In this document: one piece after another, positions 5,259-63,210 of the stretch
How the letters are laid out: each line of letters starts with the position of its first letter
Numbering within the stretch: position 1 is the first letter of the stretch
From: Eledone cirrhosa
Taxonomy: Eukaryota
NCBI GenBank assembly: GCA_964016885.1
Contig: OZ024740.1
Coordinates: 102,920,001 to 102,984,000 of the forward strand
Length of the DNA: 64,000 bases
Direction of reading: 5' to 3'
Notes under the pieces: model-generated
Database searches by the model: none
The model's input: only the letters and a program-made list of their open reading frames with translations
What the model was told of the DNA's origin: nothing
Translations under genes and position numbers: made by a program

Positions 5259-8200
5259 CTATAGTCTGATGTAGAGTGAAGGCCCATTCACACGGGCCAT
5301 TCTCGCCACTTTCACCCATCTTTCATAGAAACGGCTGGGGTGCAGCACCTCTCTCTCCATCCTGATCCTTCTTCCGAAATGATATCGGAAGAAACGAACC
5401 AGTTGTTGGCCAGAGAGAAAGGTGCCTGACCTCAGTCCTTTCAGACGCGTCCACCATACAACCTCTTTCGCCATGGCTATTACGCACAGAAACACCGCCT
5501 CTGCTTCATCTTTGAAGGGGGGAGGCGGCTTGATCATTACAATAGACTCGGTGGTCAACCGGATCGGTCCCACCCTTGACAGCAGTTGTTCGACATAGCC
5601 CCACAGATCGGCTACGCCCGAGCAGTGTACCAATGCGTGTGCAACGGTTTCCTCGTCGCACACGCATCTGGGACAGATCTTTTTGGCGGGGTCCCTACCC
5701 GGGCGCCCGTGTCTGTAGAGCCTTTCTCGAACGGGTAAAGCCCCTCGGTAGCACTGCCAGGCCAGGGACTTCTGGAAGTTGTCCATAGGTCCCGGGCTGA
5801 ATGTCCTACCGAACAGGCTGGCCAGTTCGTCCTCCTCCATGTCTAGGGCTTCTCCGAGGGCGTCGTCGCACCTGCTGCGTACCAGCCCTCTATAGAATGT
5901 TGCGGTGGAGTCTCCACTGATAACCGGATCCGCCTGCCAGAGGGCGGTGAGCGCCTGGGCACACTCGGTGTGCCAGGCGCCCAGTTTTCTCGGTCTTTGC
6001 TTGACCCAGGATTGCAACTCGGTGAGTGAGACGAGTCTGGGAAAGGTTCGTCTCACAAACGAGGCCCACACCGGTTGTCCGGTGAGGAATACGTAGAGGT
6101 GCCGTAGCCTTAATGCGTGTTTACGCATCATTAGCCACAGCATCCCCAGCCCTCCTTTCGAAGGGTGTTGACAGCAGATGGATCTCCTCACCATAGGAGC
6201 CCGCCTCTTCCAAAGGAATTGGAAGAGCGCGCGCTCCATCTTGGTGAGGGTTTCCCTTGGGCAGGGCACTACGGTCAGGCGGTAGTAGATGACGGACGCT
6301 ATGTAGGTGTTCGCCACCTCCGCCCGACCTTTCAGGGATAGTTTGCAACTGGCCCACTTCTGGGTCAGTGCAAACACCCTGTTCGTAACCTCCGCCCAGT
6401 TTTTCTCCACCTGGAGGTCCGGTCCGAACCAGACCCCGAGCAACTTCACCGGGCCCTCCGTCCAGCGTCCGACGACGCCATCGGAGGGCATCGGTCTGCC
6501 CCTCCACGTGCCGAGTTGCAAACCGATCGACTTGTCCCGGTTCAGCTTAGCCCCTGTGAACTTTTCGTACTCCTCCAGTAAGGTGCCGACCGCCTCGATT
6601 TCGGAGGCCGTCGACACCATTACTGTCACGTCATCGGCGTAGGCCGACACCGCTTTCCGCAATCCCGGTTCCAAAGGGATGCCCTGCAACAACTCCAACT
6701 TCCGCAGTAGTGGCTCGAGAGTCAACACATACAGAAGGGAGGAGAGAGGGCACCCTTGTCGGATGGACCGCGCGATTTTGAACGGCTCCGAGAGGTAGCC
6801 GTTCACCTTGACCCTAGAGCAGATGCGGCTGCTGTGCATAGCAGTGATCCAGCCCCTGAAAACGGGTCCGAAGCCTGCCGCCGCTAGCACCGCATCCAGG
6901 TAACCATGGTCGACCCTATCGAACGCCTTAGATTGATCCAAGTTGATCAGAGCCCCACCAAAGCCGGGTTCGTTCCCAACCCTCTCTATGATGTATCGCA
7001 TGAGGTGGAGGTTGTCATGGATGGACCTGGACGGGATAGCGCATGTCTGCGCATCTCCCACCAGGTTGCCCACGACAAGCGCCAACCTCTTTGTTAGCAC
7101 CTTGGCCAAAATCTGTAACTCTGTATTTAGCAGTGTTATGGGCCTGAAGTTACTTATTTCGTCCCCCTTGTTCTCGTCCTTCCTCACTAGCGTGACTACG
7201 CCCTTGGTCACAGTACAGGGAATTCTCCCGTTCTGTTGCCAGTTGCAGTAGACCGCCTCGAGGAGATCGGGGAACAAGTCCGGCATAGCTAGATATAATT
7301 CGTAAGGAAGACCATCGAGACCCGGGGATTTGTGTTTGCCGCATTGGCTCAGCACGTCCTCTATCTCAGCGGCCGAAATCGGCTCCTCGCAGGACTTCGC
7401 CTCCCTGTCCGAGAGGCGCGGCAGGCCGTCGAGGTATGGACCGAAGTCCACGTTCCCAACCGGCTCCCCGCCCCTCCCGAACAGTCGGGCAAAGTGCCTT
7501 TGAAAGGCCTCACACATCTGCTTAGGCTCAAGAATCGCCCGTCCATCCAGGTCTCGCAAAGACCGGATGGTGGATTTAGTTCCACTGTTGGCCTCTGTCA
7601 CGCGGGCCCAGCTAACAGCTTTGGTCCCCTCGTTCCCTAGAGCACGTATTTTACTTCGGACAACGCAGCCTTCGTGCTTCGCGTCGAAAAACTGGCTCAA
7701 AGCCGTTCTCGACGCTAGCACTCTGGCCACGTCGCCGCTTCTAATTGCCTCTTCTACTCTATCTATTAGCTCCCTTTCCTTCCTATTCCTATCCGCAGCT
7801 AGAACCTTACTAAATTCTATCGAGACTACTCTAATCTCTCTCTTTAGAGATACCCACCACCTGCTGTTGACGATCGCTCCAGTCAACCGTTCCTTAACTA
7901 ACGTACTAATCCGATTCCTGTAGGCTCTACTTGCCGGCAAGGACAAGTTGAGCTTCCAGTAACCGGGGCCCTGTCTATGAGTTCTGTCAAGGTTGACCCT
8001 GCAGGTCACTAATTTGTGGTCTGAATAGCCAACCATGCGCATTTTTGGACAACTTAAAAAGTCCTTATCCTTAATTCTAACTAAGAACCTATCTAGGTAC
8101 GACCTAGATGATCCGCTACGATTTGCCCAAGTCCAGGTTGGCGCAGTCGGAAAATCTAGTCGATATCTATCGGCCAGGTCAAATCGACCGATTAACCCTT

Positions 8201-8696
8201 TGAGGCTATTACACCCCTCTCTATCGGGGCAGGCCCCTACGTAGTCCCAGCGTGCATCTAGGATACCATTCCAGTCCCCCACTAATAGCAAGGAGCGGGA
8301 CGTCCCTAGAAAAGTCTCCAGACGATGGAAGAAGTCCGGCCGTATTGACCCGAAAGGGCCGTAGGCGGCTACCAACCTAAACGCTCCGCCTTTACCACTG
8401 CCAAGGTCCAGAACCACTAGTCGACCCTCCGGGTTCAAATGTACCATCTGTGTTGCGAGACCCAGATGTTTTTGCAGCAGAACGACAACTCCACCCCCAC
8501 CTCCGGGCTGACAGAGAGATGCGTGCATCTCAAAGTCATCAAAGGTGGGGGCCAGCTGTCGCACGTTGCTGATCCGGGCCTCGCAAATAACCATCACATC
8601 TATACGTTGTGACCTGAGGTCATTTAGAAGCATTGCTTGCTTCCAAGTTGAGCCCAGGTCACGCGCATTTAAACAGCCTACTCTTAGCATAGCCAT
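5259..8696 (-). CDS. LINE ORF2 polyprotein (APE endonuclease, reverse transcriptase, C-terminal CCHC zinc knuckle), 1145 aa from ATG at 8696
   Basis: APE motifs CLNAR, ICE, GDWN, YLDR, SDH. Tx1-typical GPGYWKLN. RT motifs KSPGLDG, NFRPITLLN, LDQSKAFDRV, RQGCPLS, AYADDV, LLG. Knuckle CPRC..ETVAHALVHC. No stops. Confidence 0.97.
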   Translation of the reverse strand: MAMLRVGCLNARDLGSTWKQAMLLNDLRSQRIDVMVICEARISNVRQLAPTFDDFEMHASLCQPGGGGGVVVLLQKHLGLATQMVHLNPEGRLVVLDLGSGKGGAFRLVAAYGPFGSIRPDFFHRLETFLGTSRSLLLVGDWNGILDARWDYVGACPDREGCNSLKGLIGRFDLADRYRLDFPTAPTWTWANRSGSSRSYLDRFLVRIKDKDFLSCPKMRMVGYSDHKLVTCRVNLDRTHRQGPGYWKLNLSLPASRAYRNRISTLVKERLTGAIVNSRWWVSLKREIRVVSIEFSKVLAADRNRKERELIDRVEEAIRSGDVARVLASRTALSQFFDAKHEGCVVRSKIRALGNEGTKAVSWARVTEANSGTKSTIRSLRDLDGRAILEPKQMCEAFQRHFARLFGRGGEPVGNVDFGPYLDGLPRLSDREAKSCEEPISAAEIEDVLSQCGKHKSPGLDGLPYELYLAMPDLFPDLLEAVYCNWQQNGRIPCTVTKGVVTLVRKDENKGDEISNFRPITLLNTELQILAKVLTKRLALVVGNLVGDAQTCAIPSRSIHDNLHLMRYIIERVGNEPGFGGALINLDQSKAFDRVDHGYLDAVLAAAGFGPVFRGWITAMHSSRICSRVKVNGYLSEPFKIARSIRQGCPLSSLLYVLTLEPLLRKLELLQGIPLEPGLRKAVSAYADDVTVMVSTASEIEAVGTLLEEYEKFTGAKLNRDKSIGLQLGTWRGRPMPSDGVVGRWTEGPVKLLGVWFGPDLQVEKNWAEVTNRVFALTQKWASCKLSLKGRAEVANTYIASVIYYRLTVVPCPRETLTKMERALFQFLWKRRAPMVRRSICCQHPSKGGLGMLWLMMRKHALRLRHLYVFLTGQPVWASFVRRTFPRLVSLTELQSWVKQRPRKLGAWHTECAQALTALWQADPVISGDSTATFYRGLVRSRCDDALGEALDMEEDELASLFGRTFSPGPMDNFQKSLAWQCYRGALPVRERLYRHGRPGRDPAKKICPRCVCDEETVAHALVHCSGVADLWGYVEQLLSRVGPIRLTTESIVMIKPPPPFKDEAEAVFLCVIAMAKEVVWWTRLKGLRSGTFLSGQQLVRFFRYHFGRRIRMEREVLHPSRFYERWVKVARMARVNGPSLYIRL

Positions 8697-8720
8697 GTTG
8701 GTGGTGAAGAGAAAAGGCAC

Positions 8721-11781: not shown

Positions 11782-13119
11782 TCTAGTCCTTCGCTCAAGA
11801 TTAATCTATAAGTTTAGATGTTTGCCTTCGTTTAAGTAAATATTACAGTAAGATTTTTAATATAAACAACTACAAAAAACAATTAATATTAAAACGAAAA
11901 AATTATCAATGATAAAAGAAGCGGATGCAACTTTTTTTTTTATAAAGTTATATTCCTGTTTCTTTAAAGAACATTTCATTTTTGTTCTATTGTAGGCGAA
12001 ATAATGCAATGGTTTAATAGGGAAGATATAACTTACGAATTATGTCTCTAACCGTGTAACGCTTTTTAAGTAGATAACTACAATTGAAAATACTAAAGAA
12101 ATGGAACCAACAATTCAATTTGAAAGTCGTCTAGTGACAGTGTATTACTGGTACTTTATTTTATCGACCCCGTAACGATGAAAGGCAAAAATGCAAATGC
12201 TTAAAATTTAAATTGCCTTAATTCTATCGTCTGCTGTTTCATTAAAGGGAGATTCTCGTCTGTATTTAATTCTATCGTCTACTGTTCCACTAAACAGATA
12301 TACCTCCACTATCGTCTCTATTTATACATTTTAACTTATAACTTATACACATTTGATTTGAAATATTTTATCTAGTCCCCCCCCCTCTCAATATTATGAT
12401 GATTTCTTTCGAATGAAACAGTTCTAGTCCTGTAGAAGCCATTTATATATATAATTGAACTGAGTTAAAAATTCACAATATTTATAATTAAATAAGCTCA
12501 TATATATATGTGTGTATTTATCTGTTTATTGTATTATATATAATGTGTGTATATACAGGATGTCCCCCAAAAATATATACACACTTCAACAGCATTCTAA
12601 TAACTATTGCCTGTACAGGTAATCAAAGTGTCAATCGAATGTTAGTTTCGTGTTTTAACAGTACAAATTTACAATACACACATAAAACCAGTGTATATAC
12701 ATACATGAATGTGTATACACATACATGAATGTGTATATACAATATATATGTATATATATATAGACACATATATTCACGGTGCAACGGTACATTAAAATAT
12801 AGATGCGGGAGAGGGGGGTGTATATATAGGGGCGCTGGGGATAAAGGAGTGTAAAGCGTGTGTAATTGATATATTGAAGGAGAGGAGCGTGCAGCGATAG
12901 AGTAACAAATATATAGAGAGGGGGAGAGATGGTATTGAAGGGGAGGAGTGCAAAGCGAAAGAGTAAGAGATATAAATAGAGACGGAACAGATAGAGAGAA
13001 ACAGGCGTAAGTAACAGTGGAAGAGATATAGAGAGAGGTACTCTGATTGGTTGAAAATTAGCCAATGACATACGATCACCACCACGGCTATCCCCGAAAA
13101 ATTTTTAAAGAAGCTAGGC

Positions 13120-20227: not shown

Positions 20228-21200
20228 TCAATCACACGTCACAATAAAGTGTGATGGAGTTTCCTTGTATAAATTTTCGAGGCAAGTCGATCCACTGGCA
20301 ACATTGCCTCGGGTGATATCTTCAGGACTACGTTTTCTGTGAATTACATTACATAATGTTTTAGCCACGATATCATCCCTTATAGGTAAACAATATTTTG
20401 AGAACAATTTTCGGACAGATGCTTTCATGTAGTGATAATTCCCATAATCTGTATAGGTTATCACATCTATCCCGTCTGTACATCAGGTATTTCGTTGATA
20501 TTTCTTGTGCCTGGATTACAAATACATACCCTTTGAAATGAGAGATAATATACCAGTCGCTGGTCAAAAAGAGACTACTTTGGTTATCGATGTTACTGTA
20601 ATTTCGAATCATTCTGATAAAATAACATAAGCCTCAATACCAGATTTAGGACAAATGAGGCTCTGTGCTAGTTAAATTATAAGGCCCCTTACTTGGGCCC
20701 TGGAGGAGTTAAAAAATGGGGGGGGGGGGAAACCCGGCCAACTGGGCCCTGTGCTAAAGCACACATAAGCATAATGATAAATCCAGCACTGATAACCCTC
20801 CACGGCTTTCTGCTGCTAGGCATACATCTTTTCATTCGATAACCTGCTTCGGTAGAATTGGGTAACATTCTCTGGTTATATATCCTTGGTCATTTGGCGG
20901 GGAATACTTTTTGAACAGCCACAGTGTTATTTGCTTCATTCATGCATATTTGATTCATCGATGCAATTCGACGTCTGGTAGTTAGTAGTAGATATTGTTG
21001 GTGGGGTGTGATGCAACTTTCAAAAACTGCTTCAATACATATTAAGCTTATGCCTCCGTGTTTTCATTTTAGGTAGAGGCGTTCTATATCACTGGCATCC
21101 AATCCAGTAGCCTAATTGTTGATGAGTACTGGTAGAGCAAACATATTGTGGTTTGCCGATTTCTTGTATGCAGTGAAATCTGAGAACAGTATGTATTCCA
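20228..21200 (-). mobile_element. Decayed R4/Dong-like LINE fragment (post-RT region and zinc-knuckle region), interrupted by a MITE
   Basis: Peptides SDIERLYLK*KHGGISLICIEAVFESCI, GYVFVIQAQEISTKYL and KYCLPIRDDIVAK resemble the R4-clade motifs SDxxRLYxxRxxGGRGL, G.xxAxQEQ.I.T..Y and YxxRHDxVAK. Confidence 0.75.
20635..20791. mobile_element. hAT-type MITE, CAGTGCCGGATTTA family
   Basis: TIRs CAATACCAGATTTA / TAAATCCAGCACTG. 8-bp TSD ATAAGCCT / ATAACCCT. Confidence 0.85.
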
Positions 21201-26750: not shown

Positions 26751-26871
26751 TAATATAGAAATGGCTTCTACATGACTAGAACTGTTTCATTCGGGAGAAA
26801 GCCCCGTGGCTTTCCTGATGATTTCTCCCGAATGAAACAGTTCTAGTCCTGTAGAAGCCATTTCTATATTA
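26751..26871. repeat. Hairpin of a recurrent terminal module containing a CTGATGA..GAAA hammerhead-like motif
   Basis: 50-bp arms. The same module occurs at 12396-12445 (+), 32133-32187 (+, also folded back) and 51493-51547 (-). Confidence 0.85.
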
Positions 26872-26939: not shown

Positions 26940-27013
<74 letters not shown>

Positions 27014-27123
27014 TTAGTTAAGCAAAACAAGACCACAAATTTCACAAGGAAGACATTATTAAAAGATTGTCAACATATTTTAGTTTGATGTAAGGAATGT
27101 AGAGAATAATAATAATAATATTA

Positions 27124-27309
27124 ATTTCTACTTTAGGCACAAGGCCAGCAATTACCCAGTGCATTACTGGTACTTTATTTTATCGATCCGTAAGGATGAA
27201 AGGCAAAGTCAATCTCGGCGGGATTTGAACTCAGATCGTAAAGGGACGTAACTATGCTGGAAAGCATGGCGTCCGACCCTCTACCGATACTGCCAATCCA
27301 CCGCCCTTA
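27124..27309 (-). mobile_element. SINE family 1 in the left palindrome arm
   Basis: Family consensus; mirror copy at 28598-28775. Confidence 0.85.
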
Positions 27310-28469
27310 ATAATATTAATAATAATAATGTCCGTTTACAATTGTTTCGCTACTCCATATAATATTTCTGGATCAGATGACTATATATCATTATTGATCT
27401 GGTTCAGTTGAAAATAATTAACATATTTAAAAACACCGGCTCATCGGAACTTCAAAGGAATATAAATTAAAATATGGAGAGAATGGTACATAATGTAATG
27501 TTCCATATATTGGTATTTCACTATGGTGTCCTGGTTGTATCAGTTGTCAGCCATAATCAAGCAGTATTCATCTGTCGAGGCTGCATTGTGTGAGATCTGC
27601 CTATGGGTAACAAGATGGCTGCCAAAGGACATATTTACCTTACTAATTAGAGGGTGGTTTCAGGGGAAGTAACTCCTCGAGAGATTAGAAATTCTGGCTA
27701 GTTTATAGTTAAGTGCTAATTCTTAAATTTTTTAATTGAGAGACAATGTAGGGGAGGTAACTTATAATTATCTAAGTTAGTTATAGCTATTTAACTTATA
27801 AGCTACAAGTAAAAATGGGGCTAGATGACTATGTTAGGTTAAATATTCTATTGGCGAAGGAATTAGCCCTTCGATGTTGACAGCTAATAGTTACCTCCGT
27901 TCTATCGTTAATCGGTAGAGGTCGTGATAGAGTAGCTAGGGCCCAACCGTTAAATGGACGAAGAAAATCTTGTGATCTATGTATTACCGAAGCATATTAC
28001 ATAACTCTATCACGACCTCTACCGATTAACGATAGAACAGGTAACTATTAGCTGTCAATATCGAAGGGCTAATTCCTTCGCCAATAGAATATTTGACCCA
28101 ACATAGTCATCTAGCCCCATTTTTACTTGTAGCTAATAAGTTAAATAGCTATAACTAACTTAGATAATTATAAGTTACCTCCCCTACATGTCTCTCAATT
28201 AAAAAAATTTTAAATTACCACTTAACTATAAACTAGCCACAATTTCTAATCTCTCGAGGAGTTACTTCCCCTGAAAGTAAGGTAAATATGTCCTTTGGCA
28301 GCCATATTGTTACCCATAGGCAGATCTCACACAATGCAGCCTCGACAGATGAATACTGCTTGATTATGGCTGACAACTGATACAACCAGGACACCATAGT
28401 GAAATACAAATATATGGAACATTACATTATGTACCATTCTCTCCTTATTTTAATTTATATTCCTTTGAA

Positions 28470-28588
28470 GTTCCGATGAGCCGCTCTGTTTTTAAATATG
28501 TTAATTATTTTCAACTGAACCAGATCAATAATGATATATAGTCATCTGATCCAGAAATATTATATGGAGTAGCGAAACAATTGTAAAC
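28470..28588 (+). ncRNA. Type-I hammerhead-like motif with a long stem-II loop (mirror copy at 27334-27450, minus)
   Basis: GTT-CCGATGA-GCCGCTCTGT...ATGGAGTAGC-GAAA-CAATTG-TA-AAC. Loop III is palindromic. The core has C in place of U4. Confidence 0.65.
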
Positions 28589-28597
28589 GGACATTAT

Positions 28598-28775
28598 TTG
28601 GCAGTATAAGTAGAGGGTCGGACGCCATGCTTTCCAGCATAGTTACGTCCCTTTACGATCTGAGTTCAAATCCCGCCGAGGTTGACTTTGCCTTTCATCC
28701 TTACGGGGTCGATAAAATAAAGTACCAGTAATGCACTGGGTTTTTGCTGGCCTTGTGCCTAAAGTAGAAACAATT
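28598..28775 (+). mobile_element. SINE family 1 in the right palindrome arm
   Basis: Mirror of 27124-27309, with about 30 bp deleted at the head and flank. Confidence 0.85.
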
Positions 28776-29269
28776 ATTATTAATATTATTATTATTCTCT
28801 ACATTCCTTACATCAAACTAAAATATGTTGACAATCTTTTAATAATGTCTTCCTTGTGAAATTTGTGGTCTTGTTTTGCTTAACTAATGAATATTTCCAG
28901 CTGTGCGCGCCTAACTTCTGCATGAACCCAGCCACCTAGCTGCTTTCTACTGCATATTGCACATTGAGCACATGCCTTTACGCTTTAGCTTCTAACTAAT
29001 TCACCAATCTCTCCTCTCCTATCTCCATCTCTCTCTTTAAGATTGGTTACTCTTGAACTGTGTATATATATATATATAACAGTAAAGGGAGAACACATGT
29101 ATACACATATATACATATGTGATCAAATAATAAGGGATATATATATATATATATATATATAGAAAGATTTGAATGGATACAGTTTAGTTGAAAGGAATTT
29201 ATTGACACGTGTTTCTATAACAGTTACATAACCTAAAACAGCTATCTACAAACTTTTAGTTATGCAGAC

Positions 29270-31706: not shown

Positions 31707-32192
31707 CGTGTGTGTGTATGTGTGTGTGTGTACACGTGTGTATTATGTGCTTGGGTGTGTGTACAAAGAGAAAGTGATAGAGAGAGGGAGATGGAGAGGG
31801 GGAGAGAGTCTAATATGCAGATATCGAGAGAAATCAATAGTTTATATAAACAAATGGGGCATATAGAGGAAAACTGTGCGAAATAGGCGAGGGAGTGAAG
31901 GCAGTAAGACTGGGATAAACAAATAAGAGAGAGACAGAGTGACAGATATGATTGAGAGAGAAAGATGTACGGATAGACAACCCCTCTCTCTATATTATCT
32001 CTCACTCTCTCATATATATATATAAATGAAAAGTATAGAAATTATTGTGAGCAAGAAGCCAACAGCATTTCATAATATATATATATATATATATATAGTT
32101 TCATTCGTAAGATATCACCAGGAAAGGACTTTCCTGATGATATCTTACGAATGAAATAGTTCTAGTCCTGTAGAAGTCATTTCTATAATAAA

Positions 32193-32240
<48 letters not shown>

Positions 32241-32241
<1 letters not shown>

Positions 32242-33232
32242 AACGGAAAAAATGAAACGAAATTTCATTTCCCACTCTTAGTACGGCTGTTACTTAAATA
32301 TAAGTATGTACACGTACATACATATATGTATACAGACGTACAGTAGTATGTATATATATATACATACATGCACACACATATATATATGTACGTATGGATT
32401 CACCGAACATTTATGATAATGCTCGGTGTGTTTGTAAACAAACATCCCGTATTAAGCCGTAGTGTCTAGCAATCATCATTGCTCGTTTGTTCAACACTGA
32501 CAAAGGAACGCTGTCCTAGTTTCAAGCTTATTAGCTATCGTCAGCAACGTATACTTTCCTGCCAGATTGTTGAACGTATATACTTACCTTATGCATATTA
32601 ACGGCTGAGTAGCCCAATTTGCATATCGAGTGGGTTAATCGGCCGGGTGCACTGAAAACGATAAACAGAAAAAATGAAACGAAATTTCATTTCCCACTCT
32701 TAGTACGGGTGTTACTTAAATATAAGTATGTACACGTACATACATATATGTATATATATATATACATACTACTGTACGTGTACATACATATATGTATGTA
32801 CGTGTACATACTTATATTTAAGTAACAGCCGTACTAAGAGTGGGAAATGAAATTTCGTTTCATCTTTTCCGTTTATCGTTTTCGGTGCACCCGGCCGATT
32901 AACCCACTCGATATGCAAATTGGGCTACTCAGCCGTAAATATGCATAAGGTAAGTATATACGTTCAACAATCTGGCAGGAAAGTATACGTTGCTGACGAT
33001 AGCTAATAAGTTTGAAACTAGTACAGCGTTCCTTTGTCAGTGTTGAACAAACGAGCAATGATGATTGCTAGACACTACGGCTTAATACGGGATGTTTGTT
33101 TACAAACACACCGAGCATTATCATAAATGTTCGGTGAATCCATACGTACATATATATATGTGTGTGCATGTATGTATATATATATACATACTACTGTACG
33201 TCTGTATACATATATGTATGTACGTGTACATA

Positions 33233-33238
<6 letters not shown>
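32241..33238. repeat. Direct-plus-inverted duplication: unit of about 420 bp, partial tandem copy, then inverted copy (palindrome 32299-33238)
   Basis: 32241-32330 repeats at 32663-32750, and 32775-33238 is the reverse complement of the left unit. Confidence 0.95.
32987..33029 (+). ncRNA. Minimal type-I hammerhead motif with palindromic CUAG loop III (mirror copy at 32508-32550, minus)
   Basis: ACGTTG-CTGACGA-T-AGCT-AATA-AGTT-T-GAAA-CTAG-TA-CAGCGT: 6-bp stem I, 4-bp stem II, GUA cleavage triplet. Confidence 0.8.
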
Positions 33239-33271
<33 letters not shown>

Positions 33272-33294
33272 TTCTCTCGATATATTATATGTGT

Positions 33295-34494
<1,200 letters not shown>

Positions 34495-36948: not shown

Positions 36949-37152
36949 CTGAATATACGAGGCTGGTATATATCCAATTTGGTTGTCCTTCAGTGCCCTA
37001 GCACCCACCCACTGTCCATCGGTCAAACTTGCATAGTCGCCACTAGGACAAGAGACGGGTACAAACTTGTCCCCGGCATAAAACGTCAGGACGTTCCTTA
37101 AAGCATCGTCTATATTCGGGGTAAAATCCGCAATTGCTTCGTAAACTTCCAT
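36949..37152 (-). CDS. First coding exon of a host gene: N-terminal SH3 domain (68 aa)
   Basis: MEVYEAIADF...LTFYAGDKF...GQWVGAR...QIGYIPASYIQ fits the SH3 consensus (ALYDY, LSF..GD, W.G, G.IP.NYV). Kozak-like GAGATGG, donor CAG|GTAAGT (phase 0), and likely acceptor TCTTTCTCTACAG at 37359, giving exon 36949-37358. Confidence 0.88.
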
Positions 37153-47596: not shown

Positions 47597-49346
47597 ATGG
47601 CTAGCTTAGTAGAAGGAACGCTAGCTGACGACAAAAGTAGAGAGAGAAAGGCAGAGAGTAATGTTGCTGCAACCTCTGCCTGTATAGACGTTACTATGGT
47701 GACAAATAGTGACAACAAAGTTTTGTTTCGCCAAGAAGCCGAAAAATGCAACTTACAAGATGGACCACACAGCTTACAACAGACATCAAAAACCACAAAA
47801 AATGAAACAATTTACACAACCACGACAACCACAACAACACCAAAAAAAAAAATAACATTTGCACAAACAGAATCTTGATATCTCCAATGCGAGGGAAATT
47901 TGTAATTTTCGAAGAGAAGGGTGGGTTTAAGATACCCCCCCCCCCCCCGGAAATCAGATTTGAAACACTTCGAAGGACGGTTACCTTCAGAACTGTTTCA
48001 AATGAGACAAGAAAGTCGGGATTCGTCAGTCGGGGGGAAATAGAAACAACGTTGAAGGAGGTTTTGCCGGATATAGACTTTATGCAGAGGGCCAGATAGT
48101 ATGGAAGCATTTCGGTGCTCCTCAAAAGCGAAGCCCTCGCACAGAAATATTCAGAAATGCCAATAAGTTCCAATAAATACACCTTTTTCCCGACCTACCT
48201 GGGAAAAAGGACCCCAAAAAAATCAAAATTTCGAATATACCACCAAATATTAATATTTGGTGGATTTTTGGCAGGATTTTTAGAGGAGGGAGAGGACACC
48301 ATCCTCTCCATAAAACAATTAACCAGACACACGTGGTCTGGTACAAATTTGGAGATTCTGGTGCAAATGAGGCCGGAGAGAATATCCAAAATACCTGAAA
48401 GAGTACTGATGGATAACAACAGCCACATAAACATTTCAACAGATAAGGAGGCCACACTGCTTTCGATGTGACAGAACATCACATTTAAAGGCCTCCTACC
48501 ATTTACAGAGAAACTTAAAAAAACAAGCCAAAAAAATACTCTTGCCAACACCAACACCAAAACCACCACCACGACAACAACAACAACACCACACAAAACA
48601 AGCAAACACACCAAAACAAACAACCACTCTACCAAGAACAACAACAAAAAACACAGACAACTCCCCTGAAGTACACAGTCCCACCCATCCCACTCCATCC
48701 AACACTACCACAAACACACGCACAAAAATACCATCACCACACAACATACCCCCACCGCACACTCCTGATGACGATTACTCATCAACAGACGAAGATACTT
48801 CTCCATACCCAAGCGAGGATGAAGGAGAGCATCCGAAATAAAAACAAAAACAAAAAGAGAAACACCGCAAAGCCACAAAACCACCAATCACCAACACAAA
48901 CACACAACCACCGACACAAACAACAACACAAACAACACCACAATCAAACATCCCTCTACCAGCAAAACAAACACCAACACCACCCCAAACACAAACACCT
49001 ACCATAAAAAGAAAACTCCCAATAAACAACAAACAAAAACACAAACAACAGTACGCATACATCAACACCAGCAACAAAAATTTGATGGAGGCCATCTCCA
49101 AAAACCCAAGGTGGAGACCGAGGGGAAAACTTTCGTAAAATCGGAATCAGAACCACACCTCAAACTAATAAGAGTTTCCATGGAAACTTACAGCCAACTA
49201 AAAACGAATTTTCGCAGGACGTCGGCAACCCCTGTCAAAAACCTATTAACCGCGTCCTATTAAAATGTTTCCCCACCCCACCCAACACCACCACCAGCAC
49301 CCAAATGGAGATTAAACAACCCGATCTCTAGGAAACGAAAAGGTAA
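47597..49346 (+). pseudogene. Tx1 ORF1 (Gag-like), frameshifted
   Basis: MASLVEG start, a zinc-knuckle remnant CFRCDRTSHLKASY at about 48457-48498, a Thr/Pro/Gln-rich linker, and a C-terminus homologous to 8721-9000. Confidence 0.8.
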
Positions 49347-49387
49347 GTGCATCTTTTCGTCCTTTTTCGCCAACTCTTCTCCACCAA

Positions 49388-50330
49388 CATAGCTAATTTA
49401 CGAGTTGGAAGTGTGAATGTGCGTGGCCTAGGGATGCCCTGGAAACAGAGCCAACCTTTAAACGACCTTAGGTCACACGGTATGGATGTGATAGCCATCA
49501 CCGAGTCCAGGATCCACAACAGGCAGCAACTAACCCCCATCTTCAATGACTTTGAGATCTACGCATCTCTCTGTCAGCCAGGAGGTGGAGGGGGAGTGGC
49601 TGTCATGTTTCGGAAAAACCTGGACCTCGAAATACAGCAAGTACACTTGGACCCGGAGGGTAGGCTGGTAGTCCTAGACGTGAACGGTGTTGGAGGTGGA
49701 GCCTTCAGACTGGTGGCCGTTTATGCCCGGACTGGGCAATCGCGGTCAGACTTCTTTAAGCGTCTAGAGTCTTTTCTGGGAACGTCTCGCTCCTTGCTTT
49801 TAGTGGGGGACTGGAATGGTATCCTAGACGTACGATGGGACTATGTAGCAACATGTCCCAGTAGAGGGAGGTGCAACAGCCTCAAAAATTTAATCGGCCA
49901 ATTCCAACTGGCCGATAGGTATCGACTAGATTCCCGACTGCACCACAGTGGACGTGGACAAACCGCAACAGGACATTTAGATCGTATTTAGATAGGTTCT
50001 TTATTAGAGAGAGAGAGACAAGAAGATGTTAAACTGTCCACAAATGTACATGGTTGCCTATTCAGACCACAAACTAGTCACCTGCATAGTCAACCATGAT
50101 AGAACACATAGACAAGGACCCGGATACTGGAAGCTGAACATGTCGTTACCGACCCGTAAAGCCTACAGTGAACGGTAAGTAGATTAGTTAAGCAACAGTT
50201 GACGGGAGCCATCGTCAACAATAGATGCTGGTACTCTCTCAAGAGAGCAATTAGGTGAAAGGTGGGTGAATGTAGCAAGAATGGCCTGAGTGATTGGGCC
50301 TTCTCTGTATATAAACATGTGGGTTGAAGA
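49388..50330 (+). pseudogene. Tx1 ORF2 remnant (APE endonuclease; RT deleted)
   Basis: LRVGSVNVRGL, ITESR, SLCQPGGGGGV, LLLVGDWNGILD, YSDHKLV and GPGYWKLN, then SLKRAIR joined to ERWVNVARMA. The start ATG is mutated to ATA. Confidence 0.92.
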
Positions 50331-51798: not shown

Positions 51799-52612
51799 AC
51801 ACACACGAGCACAAGTACTTGACAGACACATATTAAACACACACACACACACACAAGTACTTGACAGACACATATTAAACACACACACACACACACAAGT
51901 ACTTGACAGACACATATTAAACACACAAACACAAGTACTTGACAGACACATATTAAACACACACACACACACAAGTACTTGACAGACACATATTAAACAC
52001 ACACACACACACACACAAGTACTTGACAGACACATATTAAACACACACACACACACAAGTACTTGACAGACACATATTAAACACACACACGAGCACAAGT
52101 ACTTGATAGACACATATTAAACACACACACGAGCACAAGTACTTGATAGACACATATTAAACACACACACACACACACACAAGTACTTGACAGACACATA
52201 TTAAACACACACACGAGCACAAGTACTTGATAGACACATATTAAACACACACACACACACACACACAAGTACTTGACAGACACATTAAACACACACACGA
52301 GCACAAGTACTTGACAGACACATATTAAACACAAGCACACACAAGTACTTGACAGACACATATTAAACACACACACACACAAGTACTTGACAGCCACATA
52401 TTAAACACACACACACACAAGTACTTGACAGACACATATTAAACACACACACACACACACAAGTACTTGACAGACACATATTAAACACACACACACAAGT
52501 ACTTGACAGACACATATTAAACACACACACACACACACATACACACAAGTACTTGACAGACACATATTAAACACACACACACACACATACAAGTACTTGA
52601 CAGACACATATT

Positions 52613-52648
<36 letters not shown>

Positions 52649-52668
52649 GTGCTTGTCAGACACATATT

Positions 52669-52704
<36 letters not shown>

Positions 52705-54878
52705 GTACTTGACAGACACATATTAAACACACACACACACACACAAGTACTTGACAGACACATATTAAACACACACACACACACACAAGTACTTGACAGA
52801 CACATATTAAACACACACACACACACAGGTACTTGACAGACACATATTAAACACACACACACACACACAAGTACTTGACAGACACATATTAAACACACAC
52901 ACACACACACAAGTACTTGACAGACACATATTAAACACACACACACACACACACAAGTAGTTGACAGACACATATTAAACACACACACACACAAGTACTT
53001 GACAGACATATTAAACACACACACACACACAAGTACTTGACAGACACATATTAAACACACACACACACACACACACAAGTACTAGACAGACACATATTAA
53101 ACACACACACACACACACAAGTACTTGACAGACACATATTAAACACACACACACACACAAGTACTTGACAGACACATATTAAACACACACACATACACAA
53201 GTACTTGACAGACACATATTAAACACACACACACACACACAAGTACTTGACAGACACATATTAAACACACAAACACAAGTACTTGACAGACACATATTAA
53301 ACACACACACACACACACAAGTACTTGACAGACACATATTAAACACACACACACACACACAAGTACTTGACACACATATTAAACACACACACACACACAC
53401 ACACAAGTACTTGACAGACACATATTGAACACACACACACACACACACAAGTTCTTGACAGATACATATTAAACACACACACACACACACAAGTACTTGA
53501 CAAACACATATTAAACACACACACACACACGAGCACAAGTACTTGACAGACACATATTAAACACACACACACACACACGAGCACAAGTACTTGACAGACA
53601 CATATTAAACACACACACACACGCACAAGTACTTGACAGACACATATTAAACACACACACACACAGACACAAGTACTTGACAGACACATATTAAACACAC
53701 ACACAAGTACTTGACAGACACATATTAAACACACACACACACACACAAGTACTTGACAGACACATATTAAACACACACACACAAGTACTTGACAGACACA
53801 TATTAAACACACAAACACAAGTACTTGACAGACACATATTAAACACACACACACACACAAGTACTTGACAGACACATATTAAACACACACACACACACAC
53901 AAGTACTTGACAGACACATATTAAACACACACACACACACAAGTACTTGACAGACACATATTAAACACACACACACAAGTACTTGACAGACACATATTAA
54001 ACACACACACACACACACACGAGCACAAGTACTTGATAGACACATATTAAACACACACACACACAAGTACTTGACAGACACATATTAAACACACACACGC
54101 ACACACAAGTACTTGACAGACACATTAAACACACACACACACACACAAGTACTTGACTGACACATATTAAACACACACACACAAGTACTTGACAGACACA
54201 TATTAAACACACACACACACACACAGGTACTTGACAGACACATATTAAACACACACACACAAGTACTTGACAGACACATATTAAACACACACACACACAA
54301 GTACGTGACAGACACATATTAAACACACACACACACACACACAAGTACTTGACAGACACATATTAAAAAAACACACACACACACACACAGACACAAGTAC
54401 TTGACAGACACATATTAAACACACACACACACACACACACAAACACAAGTACTTGACAGACACATATTAAAGACACACACGAGCACAAGTACTTGATAGA
54501 CACATATTAAACACACACACACACACACACACAAGTACTTGACAGACACATTAAACACACACACGAGCACAAGTACTTGACAGACACATATTAAACACAA
54601 GCACACACAAGTACTTGACAGACACATATTAAACACACACACACACAAGTACTTGACAGCCACATATTAAACACACACACACACAAGTACTTGACAGACA
54701 CATATTAAACACACACACACACACACAAGTACTTGACAGACACATATTAAACACACACACACAAGTACTTGACAGACACATATTAAACACACACACACAC
54801 ACACATACACACAAGTACTTGACAGACACATATTAAACACACACACACACACATACAAGTACTTGACAGACACATATT

Positions 54879-54914
<36 letters not shown>

Positions 54915-54934
54915 GTGCTTGTCAGACACATATT

Positions 54935-54970
<36 letters not shown>

Positions 54971-56688
54971 GTACTTGACAGACACATATTAAACACACAC
55001 ACACACACACAAGTACTTGACAGACACATATTAAACACACACACACACACACAAGTACTTGACAGACACATATTAAACACACACACACACACAGGTACTT
55101 GACAGACACATATTAAACACACACACACACACACAAGTACTTGACAGACACATATTAAACACACACACACACACACAAGTACTTGACAGACACATATTAA
55201 ACACACACACACACACACACACAAGTAGTTGACAGACACATATTAAACACACACACACACAAGTACTTGACAGACATATTAAACACACACACACACACAA
55301 GTACTTGACAGACACATATTAAACACACACACACACACACACACAAGTACTAGACAGACACATATTAAACACACACACACACACACAAGTACTTGACAGA
55401 CACATATTAAACACACACACACACACAAGTACTTGACAGACACATATTAAACACACACACATACACAAGTACTTGACAGACACATATTAAACACACACAC
55501 ACACACACAAGTACTTGACAGACACATATTAAACACACAAACACAAGTACTTGACAGACACATATTAAACACACACACACACACACAAGTACTTGACAGA
55601 CACATATTAAACACACACACACACACACAAGTACTTGACACACATATTAAACACACACACACACACACACACAAGTACTTGACAGACACATATTGAACAC
55701 ACACACACACACACACAAGTTCTTGACAGATACATATTAAACACACACACACACACACAAGTACTTGACAAACACATATTAAACACACACACACACACGA
55801 GCACAAGTACTTGACAGACACATATTAAACACACACACACACACACGAGCACAAGTACTTGACAGACACATATTAAACACACACACACACGCACAAGTAC
55901 TTGACAGACACATATTAAACACACACACACACAGACACAAGTACTTGACAGACACATATTAAACACACACACAAGTACTTGACAGACACATATTAAACAC
56001 ACACACACACACACACAAGTACTTGACAGACACATATTAAACACACACACACAAGTACTTGACAGACACATATTAAACACACAAACACAAGTACTTGACA
56101 GACACATATTAAACACACACACACACACAAGTACTTGACAGACACATATTAAACACACACACACACACACAAGTACTTGACAGACACATATTAAACACAC
56201 ACACACACACAAGTACTTGACAGACACATATTAAACACACACACACAAGTACTTGACAGACACATATTAAACACACACACACACACACACGAGCACAAGT
56301 ACTTGATAGACACATATTAAACACACACACACACAAGTACTTGACAGACACATATTAAACACACACACGCACACACAAGTACTTGACAGACACATTAAAC
56401 ACACACACACACACACAAGTACTTGACTGACACATATTAAACACACACACACAAGTACTTGACAGACACATATTAAACACACACACACACACACAGGTAC
56501 TTGACAGACACATATTAAACACACACACACAAGTACTTGACAGACACATATTAAACACACACACACACAAGTACGTGACAGACACATATTAAACACACAC
56601 ACACACACACACAAGTACTTGACAGACACATATTAAAAAAACACACACACACACACACAGACACAAGTACTTGACAGACACATATTAA

Positions 56689-56719
<31 letters not shown>

Positions 56720-56743
56720 AGTACTTGACAGACACATATTAAA

Positions 56744-56800
<57 letters not shown>

Positions 56801-59800
56801 GTACTTGACAGACACATATTAAACACACACACACACACAAGTACTTGACAGACACATATTAAACACACACACACACACAAGTACTTGACAGACACATATT
56901 AAACACACACACACACACAAGTACTTGACAGACACATGTTAAACACACACACACACACACACACAAGTACTTGACAGACACATATTAAACACACACACAC
57001 ACACACACAAGTAGTTGACAGACACATATTAAACACACACACACAAATACTTGACAGACACATATTAAACACACACACACACACACAAGTACTTGACAGA
57101 CACATATTAAACACACACACACACACAAGTACTTGACAGACACATATTAAACACACACACATACACAAGTACTTGACAGACACATATTAAACACACACAC
57201 ACACACACAAGTACTTGACAGACACATATTAAACACACACACACACACGAGCACAAGTACTTGACAGACACATATTAAACACACACACACACACACACAC
57301 ACACAAGTACTTGACAGACACATATTAAACACACACACACACACACAAGTACTTGACAGACACATATTAAACACACACAGACACACGAGCACAAGTACTT
57401 GACAGACACATATTAAACACACACACACACACGAGCACAAGTACTTGACAGACACATAATAAACACACATACACACAAGTACTTGACAGACACATATTAA
57501 ACACACACACACACAGACACAAGTACTTGACAGACACATATTAAACACACACACACACACACACACAAGTACTTGACAGACACATATTAAACACACACAC
57601 ACACGAGCACAAGTACTTGACCGACACATATTAAACACACACACACACACACAAGTACTTGACAGACACATATTAAACACACACACACACACACAAGTAC
57701 TTGACAGACACATATTAAACACACACACATACACACAAGTACTTGACAGACACATATTAAACACACACACACAAGTAGTTGACAGACACATATTAAACAC
57801 ACACACACACACGAGCACAAGTACTTGACAGACACATATTAAACACACACACACACACACAAGTACTTGACAGACACATATTAAACACACACACACACAA
57901 GTACTTGACAGACACATATTAAACACACACACACACACGAGCACAAGTACTTGACAGACACATATTAAACACACACACACACACACAAGTACTTGACAGA
58001 CACATATTAAACACACACACACACACGAGCACAAGTACTTGACAGACACATATTAAACACACACACACACACACAAGTACTTGACAGACACATATTAAAC
58101 ACACACACACAAGTACTTGACAGACACATATTAAACACACACACACACAAGTACTTGACAGACACATATTAAACACACACACAAGTACTTGACAGACACA
58201 TATTAAACACACACACACACACACACAAGTACTTGACAGACACATATTAAACACACACACACAAGTACTTGACAGACACATATTAAACACACACACACAC
58301 ACACACAAGTAGTTGACAGACACATATTAAACACACAAACACACAAGTACTTGACAGACATATTAAACACACACGCACACACACAAGTACTTGACAGACA
58401 CATATTAAACACACACACACACAAGTACTTGACAGACACATATTAAACACACACACACACACACAAGTACTTGACAGACACATATTAAACACACACACAC
58501 GAGCACAAGTACTTGACAGACACATATTAAACACACACACACACACAAGTACTTGACAGACACATATTAAACACACACACACACACAAGTACTTGACAGA
58601 CACATATTAAACACACACACACACACACACAAGTACTTGACAGACACATATTAAACACACACACACACACGCAAGTACTTGACAGACACATATTAAACAC
58701 ACACACACGAGCACAAGTACTTGACAGACACATATTAAACACACACACACACACACACACCCACACACACACACACACAAGTACTTGACAGACACATATT
58801 AAACACACACACACACAAGTACTTGACAGACACATGTTAAACACACACACACGAGCACAAGTACTTGACAGACACATATTAAACACACACACACACAAGT
58901 ACTTGACAGACACATATTAAACACACACACACACACAAGTACTTGACAGACACATATTAAACACACACACGAGCACAAGTACTTGACAGACACATATTAA
59001 ACACACACAAGTACTTGACAGACACATATTAAACACACACACACACACAAGTACTTGACAGACACATATTAAACACACACACGAGCACAAGTACTTGACA
59101 GACACATATTAAACACACACACACACACACAAGTACTTGACAGACACATATTAAACACACACACACACACAAGTACTTGACAGACACATATTAAACACAC
59201 ACACACACACAAGTACTTGACAGACACATATTAAACACACACGAGCACAAGTACCTGACAGACACATATTAAACACACACGAGCACAAGTACCTGACAGA
59301 CACATATTAAACACACACACACACACACACAAGTACTTGACAGACACATATTAAACACACACACACACACACACACACACAAGTACTTGACAGACACATA
59401 TTAAACACACCAACACGAGCACAAGTACTTGACAGACACATATTAAACACACACACAAGTACTTGACAGACACATATTAAACACACACACACACACAAGT
59501 ACTTGACAGACACATATTAAACACACACACACACACACAAGTACTTGACAGACACATATTAAACACACACACACGAGCACAAGCACTTGACAGACACATA
59601 TTAAACACACACACACACACACACACAAGTACTTGACAGACACATATTAAACACACACACACACACACAAGTACTTGACAGACACATATTAAACACACAC
59701 ACACAAACACAAGTACTTGACAGACACATATCAATCACACACACACACACAAGTACTTGACAGACACATATTAAACACACACACACGAGCAAAGCACTTG

Positions 59801-59997
59801 ACAGACACATATTAAACACACACACACACACACACACAAGTACTTGACAGACACATATTAAACACACACACACACAAGTACTTGACAGACACATATTAAA
59901 CACACACACACACACACACACACACAAGTACTTGACAGACACATATTAAACACACACACACACACACACACACACAAGTACTTGACAGACACATATT

Positions 59998-60031
<34 letters not shown>

Positions 60032-60807
60032 GTACTTGACAGACACATATTAAACACACACACACACACACAAGTACTTGACAGACACATATTAAACACA
60101 CACACACACACACAAGTACTTGACAGAAACATATTAAACACACACACACACAAGTACTTGACAGACACATATTAAACACACACACACACACACACAAGTA
60201 CTTGACAGACACATATTAAACACACACACACACACAAGTACTTGACAGACACATATTAAACACACACACACACAAGCACTTGACAGACACATATTAAACA
60301 CACACACACACACACACACACAAGTACTTGACAGACACATATTAAACACACACACACACAAGTACTTGACAGACACATATTAAACAGACACACACACACA
60401 CAAGTACTTGACAGACACATATTAAACACACACACACACAAGTACTTGACAGACACATATTAAACACACACACACGAGCACAAGCACTTGACAGACACAT
60501 ATTAAACACACACACACACACACACACAAGTACTTGACAGACACATATTAAACACACACACACACACACACAAGTACTTGACAGACACATATTAAACACA
60601 CACACACAAACACAAGTACTTGACAGACACATATTAAACACACACACACACACACAAGTACTTGACAGACACATATTAAACACACACACACGAGCACAAG
60701 CACTTGACAGACACATATTAAACACACACACACACACACACACAAGTACTTGACAGACACATATTAAACACACACACACACACACAAGTACTTGACAGAC
60801 ACATATT

Positions 60808-60845
<38 letters not shown>

Positions 60846-62976
60846 GTACTTGACAGACACATATTAAACACACACACACACAAGTACTTGACAGACACAT
60901 ATTAAACACACACACACACACACAAGTACTTGACAGACACATATTAAACACACACACACACACAAGTACTTGACAGACACATATTAAACACACACACACA
61001 CGAGCACAAGTACTTGACAGACACATATTAAACACACACACACACACACAAGTACTTGACAGACACATATTAAACACACACACACACAAGTACTTGACAG
61101 ACACATATTAAACACACACACACACACGAGCACAAGTACTTGACAGACACATATTAAACACACACACACACACACAAGTACTTGACAGACACATATTAAA
61201 CACACACACACACACGAGCACAAGTACTTGACAGACACATATTAAACACACACACACACACACAAGTACTTGACAGACACATATTAAACACACACACACA
61301 AGTACTTGACAGACACATATTAAACACACACACACACAAGTACTTGACAGACACATATTAAACACACACACAAGTACTTGACAGACACATATTAAACACA
61401 CACACACACACACACAAGTACTTGACAGACACATATTAAACACACACACACAAGTACTTGACAGACACATATTAAACACACACACACACACACACAAGTA
61501 GTTGACAGACACATATTAAACACACAAACACACAAGTACTTGACAGACATATTAAACACACACACACACACACAAGTACTTGACAGACACATATTAAACA
61601 CACACACACACAAGTACTTGACAGACACATATTAAACACACACACACGAGCACAAGTACTTGACAGACACATATTAAACACACACACACACACAAGTACT
61701 TGACAGACACATATTAAACACACACACACACACAAGTACTTGACAGACACATATTAAACACACACACACACACACACAAGTACTTGACAGACACATATTA
61801 AACACACACACACACACGCAAGTACTTGACAGACACATATTAAACACACACACACGAGCACAAGTACTTGACAGACACATATTAAACACACACACACACA
61901 CACACACCCACACACACACACACACAAGTACTTGACAGACACATATTAAACACACACACACACACAAGTACTTGACAGACACATATTAAACACACACACG
62001 AGCACAAGTACTTGACAGACACATATTAAACACACACAAGTACTTGACAGACACATATTAAACACACACACACACACAAGTACTTGACAGACACATATTA
62101 AACACACACACGAGCACAAGTACTTGACAGACACATATTAAACACACACACACACACACAAGTACTTGACAGACACATATTAAACACACACACACACACA
62201 AGTACTTGACAGACACATATTAAACACACACACACACACAAGTACTTGACAGACACATATTAAACACACACGAGCACAAGTACCTGACAGACACATATTA
62301 AACACACACGAGCACAAGTACCTGACAGACACATATTAAACACACACACACACACACACAAGTACTTGACAGACACATATTAAACACACACACACACACA
62401 CACACACACAAGTACTTGACAGACACATATTAAACACACCAACACGAGCACAAGTACTTGACAGACACATATTAAACACACACACAAGTACTTGACAGAC
62501 ACATATTAAACACACACACACACACAAGTACTTGACAGACACATATTAAACACACACACACACACACAAGTACTTGACAGACACATATTAAACACACACA
62601 CACGAGCACAAGCACTTGACAGACACATATTAAACACACACACACACACACACACAAGTACTTGACAGACACATATTAAACACACACACACACACACAAG
62701 TACTTGACAGACACATATTAAACACACACACACAAACACAAGTACTTGACAGACACATATCAATCACACACACACACACAAGTACTTGACAGACACATAT
62801 TAAACACACACACACGAGCAAAGCACTTGACAGACACATATTAAACACACACACACACACACACACAAGTACTTGACAGACACATATTAAACACACACAC
62901 ACACAAGTACTTGACAGACACATATTAAACACACACACACACACACACACACACAAGTACTTGACAGACACATATT

Positions 62977-63014
<38 letters not shown>

Positions 63015-63118
63015 GTACTTGACAGACACATATTAAACACACACACACACACACAAGTACTTGACAGACACATATTAAACACACACACACACACACAAGT
63101 ACTTGACAGACACATATT

Positions 63119-63154
<36 letters not shown>

Positions 63155-63174
63155 GTGCTTGTCAGACACATATT

Positions 63175-63210
<36 letters not shown>

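What the first reader, a model, noticed from the sequence alone, without database searches (positions are those of the whole stretch)
32241..33238. Tandem-plus-inverted unit with the best-formed hammerhead; one arm has lost the cleavage site
A terminally redundant unit of about 420 bp is followed by its inverted copy, the classic direct-plus-inverted pLTR layout, but with no ORF. The plus-strand motif has CTAG-TA (GUA site). The minus-strand mirror has CTAG-GA, losing the essential U. The minus strand is the host gene's sense strand, so loss of cleavage there could reflect selection, though a single base proves little. This is the second independent example of the palindrome-with-ribozymes architecture.
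Basis: partly seen in the sequence, partly recalled or inferred. Interest (0 to 1): 0.75.

Follow-up and report, generated by a model that had tools for sequence, protein, structure and literature searches.

The report
Ordinary decay in mirrored ribozyme repeat
This is one of about ten thousand copies of a small protein-free repeat with a predicted self-cutting RNA motif, likely pasted in back-to-back by a Penelope-type jumping gene; the broken cutting site on the host gene's strand occurs no more often than ordinary mutation predicts.

Summary
The layout is real. Two arms of a 422-bp unit point outwards (453 of 462 bases complementary), each with one type I hammerhead, no ORF, between (TA)n tracts. 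The minus arm reads GGA where the family has GTA, and the minus strand is the sense strand of a host gene.

The selection idea is not supported. Genome-wide, this U is changed in 106 of 10,065 exact-context copies (1.05%), against 81 of 7,581 (1.07%) for a control T outside the ribozyme. In 634 kb of 18 gene bodies, broken cores are 6 of 27 on the sense strand and 11 of 46 antisense (p=1.0). The plus arm carries its own weakening stem change.

The element is a non-LTR retrozyme-like, non-autonomous repeat with a Penelope insertion footprint. 21 of 45 sampled loci are back-to-back pairs, and 18 of 19 pairs with standard ends have one short and one long end, 59 nt apart; a young autonomous Penelope family here has a 60-nt tail. 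Cleavage, circles and expression are untested. The scan noted this kind of element before on other DNA of this genome.

The parts
32241..33242 (.). Whole insertion: two outward-pointing arms of a 422-bp non-coding unit, joined at their 5' ends
32241..32754 (-). Left arm (host sense): partial unit 32754-32663 plus a full unit 32662-32241, ending at the long 3' end (unit position 422)
32747..33242 (+). Right arm (host antisense): partial unit to 32874 plus unit positions 1-368, ending at the short 3' end. The centre junction overlaps in a short TA-rich palindrome near 32747-32754 (boundary approximate)
32241..32299 (-). 59-nt 'tail' present only at this end of the insertion
   Evidence: 60-nt tail in autonomous family PLE-A
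32508..32550 (-). Type I hammerhead motif with U16.1>G at 32515, predicted inactive (NUH rule recalled)
32987..33029 (+). Type I hammerhead motif with intact core and GUA site (predicted cut after 33023), palindromic helix III hexamer, private stem II C>T at 33011
32218..32240 (.). (TA)n tract at the left end (target site)
33243..33269 (.). (TA)n tract at the right end (target site)
36951..37152 (-). First coding exon (SH3-like) of the host gene, followed by a GT donor; the element lies in the intron after it
33575..33627 (-). Control: hammerhead of another repeat family with an intact core on the host's sense strand

Best explanation
This is one back-to-back insertion of an abundant, protein-free 422-bp hammerhead repeat (non-LTR retrozyme type) that was likely written into a (TA)n tract by a Penelope-type reverse transcriptase, and its broken cleavage site is most likely a neutral mutation after insertion. 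Proposed steps: (1) a source copy is transcribed, and the hammerhead, probably acting as a dimer through its palindromic helix III, cuts unit-length RNA that may circularise (inferred). (2) A Penelope RT/GIY-YIG protein cuts both strands of (TA)n and primes from both, starting at two fixed sites 59 nt apart (fixed ends shown; enzyme inferred). (3) Both cDNAs run past one unit length, through the cleavage site, and join at their ends, giving two outward-pointing arms (layout shown; route inferred). (4) Each arm then collects random changes, one of which hit U16.1 (rate shown to match a control). In a host pre-mRNA the antisense arm is made first and would pair with the sense arm, so the sense hammerhead would be masked whether mutated or not (order shown; masking predicted).
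For: Copy number: 9,959 exact intact cleavage-site 18-mers and 7,500 of an unrelated 18-mer. Sample of 46 loci chosen by the non-ribozyme 18-mer, one dropped as a duplicate: 21 of 45 hold back-to-back pairs (25 pairs), and 57 of 81 arms end exactly at unit position 368 or 422. Of 19 pairs with both ends standard, 18 are short+long and 1 is long+long; the other 6 pairs have one end cut elsewhere. Ends run into (TA)n. Autonomous PLE-A (open frames to about 1,240 aa, C-terminal GIY-YIG, 32,180 first-look candidates) has the same two ends, a 60-nt tail and the same four letters after its long end, and 2 of 2 full loci examined are short+long. Arms of one locus agree at 92 of 99 subfamily sites versus 63% between loci. 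The window's arms share four alleles, of which no other fetched copy carries more than one. Arms cross the cleavage site and reach 11 or more chained pieces. Fold: 9 of 14 pairs change on both sides in 6 sequences, and 0 of 500 shuffles reach this. Neutrality. Host-sense transcript folds as one long hairpin, -821 kcal/mol; all 16 paired sense copies in gene bodies have their complement upstream. Literature: PMC8557442 (passages), PMC11167929 (parts 1-2 of 4), PMC7229834 (passages).
Against: The unit shares no sequence beyond microsatellite with the ends of the two autonomous families examined, so the driver is matched by footprint only. Shared alleles between arms could come from arm-to-arm gene conversion rather than one template. 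Core sites vary slightly less than other non-CpG sites (12 of 1,312 vs 437 of 30,473), but post-insertion decay masks any strong signal. In PMC11167929 ribozyme cleavage was not needed for insertion in vitro and the two strands showed no difference in start site. In the 2026 preprint 8 of 9 tested dimers did not cleave. The intron test is small (73 copies, 11 of 18 gene spans with any hit) and would miss a modest bias. Solo copies lean antisense, 23 to 11 (p=0.058).
Confidence: 0.8

Rival explanations
1. Selection fixed the U16.1>G change because a self-cleaving site on the sense strand harmed the host pre-mRNA.
For: The change hits an essential position and lies on the host's sense strand. 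It is one of only two private changes in that arm's full unit outside the microsatellite-like part, about 9% by chance.
Against: Neutral rate genome-wide. No strand difference in 73 intronic copies, and 14 of 16 paired sense copies are intact. Intact sense hammerheads occur in the same intron. The motif would be paired with its complement.
Confidence: 0.07
2. The palindrome arose after a single-arm insertion, by DNA fold-back or recombination, or from two separate insertions into one (TA)n tract, later homogenised by gene conversion.
For: Arms share locus-private alleles, which conversion or fold-back also gives. Three sampled loci have both arms starting at the same unit position (L176, L183, L186). 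(TA)n tracts are reused by other elements (L096).
Against: Fold-back gives equal outer ends, and two independent insertions would pair ends at random, yet 18 of 19 pairs are short+long. The same asymmetry occurs in PLE-A.
Confidence: 0.08
3. The unit is the orphaned terminal repeat (pLTR) of an autonomous Penelope element not yet found, copied from linear read-through RNA. The hammerhead is a passenger and no RNA circle is involved.
For: All layout features are Penelope features. Uncleaved RNA was the main template in vitro. Only 2 autonomous families were examined.
Against: None of the fetched loci showed the whole unit flanking an ORF. The two unit/ORF fusions seen (L005, L030) break inside the unit and the ORF. 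Long arrays from apparently one template fit a circle or a long tandem source.
Confidence: 0.2

Closest known systems
Animal non-LTR retrozymes (PMC7229834, passages seen; bioRxiv 10.64898/2026.07.22.740005, parts 1-3 of 5 read)
   Same: Non-coding tandem unit of a few hundred bp, low GC, type I hammerhead, thousands of copies. Weak palindromic helix III and a U.U mismatch at the base of helix II, as in the two axolotl motifs that need dimers.
   Different: Here about half of the sampled loci are back-to-back pairs with fixed short and long ends; the word 'inverted' does not occur in the main text of PMC7229834. This locus has one hammerhead per strand, so it fails the preprint's 'two consecutive hammerheads' definition of active. 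RNA and cleavage are not shown here.
Endonuclease-positive Penelope-like elements (PMC8557442, passages; Poseidon of Anolis, PMC11167929, parts 1-2 of 4)
   Same: Partial tandem, inverted 5'-truncated copy, tail at one end only, (TA)n targets, hammerhead in the repeat. Both-strand extension from two internal start sites was shown in vitro for Poseidon.
   Different: No ORF. The tail is 59 nt rather than 30-40 nt. No sequence match to the repeats of the two autonomous families examined in this genome.
Non-autonomous Chlamys derivatives such as MRC1 (PMC8557442, passage)
   Same: Non-coding element with pLTR-like, multicopy head-to-tail insertions, mobilised in trans.
   Different: Those usually resemble their autonomous partner at the 3' end, and Naiad/Chlamys lack canonical hammerheads. 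This unit has a hammerhead and no identified sequence partner.

Membership tests
Animal non-LTR retrozyme | Type I hammerhead motif in the unit | tested here: met
   Core motif in both arms; covariation in 9 of 14 pairs across 6 sequences from about three families. No Rfam match.
Animal non-LTR retrozyme | Tandem units of about 150-450 bp, low GC, many copies | tested here: met
   422-bp unit; multi-unit arrays; about 10,000 site copies; 29.5% GC over 32001-34000.
Animal non-LTR retrozyme | No protein coding, no LTR/PBS/PPT | tested here: met
   No ORF of 100 aa or more; no Pfam match for 4 short frames in the element. PBS/PPT were not searched separately.
Animal non-LTR retrozyme | Two consecutive units with complete hammerheads at the locus ('active' in the 2026 preprint) | tested here: not met
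   One hammerhead per strand here; met at other loci, e.g. L184, L186.
Animal non-LTR retrozyme | Self-cleavage of the RNA | not testable with these tools
   Needs in vitro transcription.
Animal non-LTR retrozyme | Linear and circular unit-length RNA in tissues | not testable with these tools
   No RNA holder listed.
Animal non-LTR retrozyme | Target-site duplication when present | tested here: inconclusive
   Both ends run into (TA)n.
Autonomous Penelope-like element | RT plus GIY-YIG ORF | tested here: not met
Penelope-mobilised element | Partial tandem plus inverted 5'-truncated copy | tested here: met
   21 of 45 sampled loci are back-to-back pairs
Penelope-mobilised element | Tail at one end only (two fixed 3' ends) | tested here: met
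   18 of 19 pairs with standard ends; 59 nt vs 60 nt in PLE-A
Penelope-mobilised element | (TA)n target preference | tested here: met
Penelope-mobilised element | Sequence homology to the pLTR of an autonomous partner | tested here: inconclusive
   None for the 2 families examined; other families were not examined.

The most novel reading that the evidence does not exclude
A Penelope RT dimer (PLE-A) copies one retrozyme RNA circle from both strands of a cut, and the back-to-back product silences itself. In any host transcript the complement is made first and zips up the sense ribozyme, so mirrored copies are tolerated in introns while unshielded sense copies are purged (solo copies 11 sense to 23 antisense). 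The ribozyme is then neutralised by layout, not by point mutation.
Probability: 0.2. Interest if true: 0.65.

Novelty: new member of a known kind. Interest (0 to 1): 0.32.

Why it matters
The single-base story is ordinary decay, and showing that removes a tempting selection claim. What remains of value is at family level. That animal retrozymes ride on Penelope enzymes is proposed from co-occurrence and phylogeny (2026 preprint). Here a retrozyme-like family shows the Penelope footprint itself (two arms, fixed short and long ends, tail length matching a young autonomous family), which names a candidate enzyme and RNA for a direct in vitro test. If mirrored layout also masks the ribozyme in introns, it would explain how a genome carries many thousands of self-cleaving motifs inside genes.

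Tried and rejected
Rfam: no hammerhead family among the listed matches; the miRNA-like hits are generic hairpin or TA-repeat matches below gathering score. Monomer folding of the 66-mers was uninformative (z=+1.18 and -0.09). Expression: no RNA holder listed; laying the three listed contig sets showed only that the family is very deep and which alleles are rare. Autonomous partner by sequence: not found in PLE-A or PLE-B loci. The two fusions with PLE ORFs (L030/L082, L005/L083) fit either template switching or nested insertion in TA tracts, so I give them little weight. Arm ends at the cleavage site: a few were seen in biased loci, but no arm end was tallied at unit positions 147-151 in the unbiased sample, so this was dropped. 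Palindromic versus other copies did not differ in core damage (9 of 70 vs 3 of 49, p=0.36). An apparent antisense excess in the host intron did not hold for inactivation once 17 myosin gene spans were added. I left out the widely spaced C3 myosin pair (exons 314 kb apart) as uncertain. One 'broken' sense copy (m11) is probably a mirror-junction artefact, and broken copies of families with no intact member are missed. A coding-like frame at 20231-20482 (-) found no homologue. Literature searches listed no paper on cephalopod hammerhead repeats or on strand bias of intronic hammerheads. PMC13282606 has no 'ribozyme' or 'hammerhead' in its main text. No supplements were read, and repeat libraries there may already hold this family. 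Earlier-finding look-ups near the locus and by sequence returned nothing.

Full report
Observation. The element spans 32241-33242 between (TA)n tracts. Arms 32295-32756 and 32781-33242 are complementary at 453 of 462 positions, and a 422-bp direct repeat marks the unit length. Both arms point outwards. The minus arm is a partial plus a full unit ending at unit position 422; the plus arm is a partial unit plus positions 1-368. Each arm has one hammerhead core. The plus arm keeps GTA, and the minus arm has G for the essential U at 32515 (hammerhead numbering and the NUH rule are recalled knowledge). There is no ORF of 100 aa or more.

Host gene. A minus-strand exon at 36951-37152 encodes an SH3-like peptide 86% identical to the start of P0001, a protein its source names as an uncharacterised octopus protein with DUF1151. 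The last exon is about 82 kb left of the window on the same strand. The middle exons are on unplaced contig C411, and the last-exon stretch holds a 200-N gap. So the minus strand is sense, with the intron inferred across a gap. The genome is 3.0 Gb and, by that homologue, probably an octopod (inference).

Is it a hammerhead? Rfam found none and monomer folding is weak. But an alignment of 6 natural sequences from about three related families in this genome shows changes on both sides in 9 of 14 pairs, 94% of cells paired, and no shuffle or slid control near it; the sample is small. Helix III is a self-complementary hexamer that stays palindromic when it changes. PMC7229834 (passages) describes axolotl motifs with a palindromic helix III loop or a U.U at the base of helix II that cleave much better as dimers. 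The plus arm is not the family's best form: it has a private G-C to G.U change in stem II at 33011.

Family. The intact cleavage-site 18-mer occurs 9,959 times and an unrelated 18-mer 7,500 times; the best copies are 96-98% identical. I fetched the 46 loci behind the first 100 listed hits of the non-ribozyme 18-mer on C1 and dropped L170 as a duplicate. 21 of 45 loci hold back-to-back pairs (25 pairs; the four in L156 look like two duplicated pairs). 57 of 81 arms end exactly at unit position 368 or 422, and these ends run into (TA)n (one arm of L185 continues instead). Of 19 pairs with two standard ends, 18 are short+long. Arms of one locus agree at 92 of 99 subfamily sites against 63% between loci. 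The window's arms share four alleles, of which no other fetched copy has more than one. This fits one template per insertion, or later conversion between arms.

Driver. Two abundant autonomous Penelope families were found through ORF fragments beside family copies. Neither shares repeat sequence with the unit. PLE-A has its own hammerhead, the same two-end system with a 60-nt tail (59 nt here), the same four letters after the long end, and short+long ends in 2 of 2 full loci. I compared these ends after an earlier scan note pointed to shared end features. PMC8557442 (passages) describes the tandem, inverted and one-sided tail layout as standard for Penelope elements. PMC11167929 (parts 1-2 of 4) shows both-strand extension from two internal start sites in vitro, with ribozyme cleavage not required. 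The 2026 preprint (parts 1-3 of 5) argues that retrozymes derive from Penelope repeats and found cleavage in 1 of 9 dimers.

Selection test. (a) U16.1 is substituted in 106 of 10,065 exact-context copies (17 of them to G), and a control T in 81 of 7,581 (p=0.94). (b) In the locus sample 12 of 119 complete hammerheads have a core change, with no significant excess in palindromes (9 of 70 vs 3 of 49), and 12 of 15 pairs with hammerheads in both arms keep an intact one on both strands; whether those loci are intronic is unknown. (c) I fetched 634 kb inside the host gene and 17 myosin gene spans whose strand comes from collinear Pfam exon hits. A structure-based scan with no hits in 5 shuffles, extended by homology, gave 73 hammerheads of many families: sense 21 intact and 6 broken (the focal copy among them), antisense 35 and 11, p=1.0; 14 of 16 paired sense copies are intact. 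Nested opposite-strand genes were not excluded and power is modest. (d) An intact sense-strand hammerhead lies at 33575-33627. (e) The chance of a core hit is 9% for one arm and 17% for either.

Why loss is not needed. On the host's strand the antisense arm is transcribed first, and the transcript folds as one hairpin of -821 kcal/mol that includes the ribozyme. All 16 paired sense copies have their complement upstream. The sense arm also has only one hammerhead, so it lacks a partner for dimer cleavage in cis. One result leans towards selection of another kind: solo copies are 11 sense to 23 antisense (p=0.058), equally for intact (7:15) and broken (4:8) cores. This could reflect removal of unshielded sense insertions or a general orientation bias, and is a lead only.

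Verdict. The selection reading is not supported. The element is a new member of a known kind; its cleavage, circular RNA and enzyme remain inferred. Earlier notes of this scan describe the same kind of element on other DNA of this genome; they are unchecked and not counted as support. No paper supplements were seen.

Noticed in passing
window 12390-12445, 21304, 21906, 24944, 26815, 30343, 32134, 33627, 51544: Hammerhead cores of several other repeat families; some sit in small palindromes (26757-26870, 32100-32190). Intronic hammerheads average about one per 9 kb in the 634 kb scanned.
   Followed up: partly
window 27007-28894: A 1.9-kb inverted repeat (90% identity) with SINE-like pieces in its arms and no complete hammerhead core in the scan.
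   Followed up: no
window 5259-8720 (-): Open 1,153-aa non-LTR retrotransposon frame with endonuclease, RT and zf-RVT domains; a diverged relative lies near 49273-50254.
   Followed up: partly
window 51799-64000: 42-bp satellite, about 293 copies, running off the window's end.
   Followed up: no
window 20231-20633 (-): Coding-looking frames inside the host intron with no Pfam match; the one frame searched further found no homologue.
   Followed up: partly
L030:359-1982 (G000:C3:333616333-333619658): A 5'-truncated PLE-A copy with the short end is fused to a unit fragment in one arm, while the other arm is the unit with the long end: a possible template switch between the two RNAs, or a nested insertion.
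   Followed up: partly
G000:C411 and L194: The middle exons of the host gene are on an unplaced contig, and a 200-N gap lies in the stretch holding the last exon: probably an assembly gap.
   Followed up: partly
18 gene spans: Solo hammerhead copies lean antisense to the host gene, 23 to 11 (p=0.058).
   Followed up: partly
window 32241-33242 and family: About half of the sampled loci form long near-perfect hairpins in any transcript. In cephalopods these would be ADAR editing substrates (recalled knowledge, untested).
   Followed up: no
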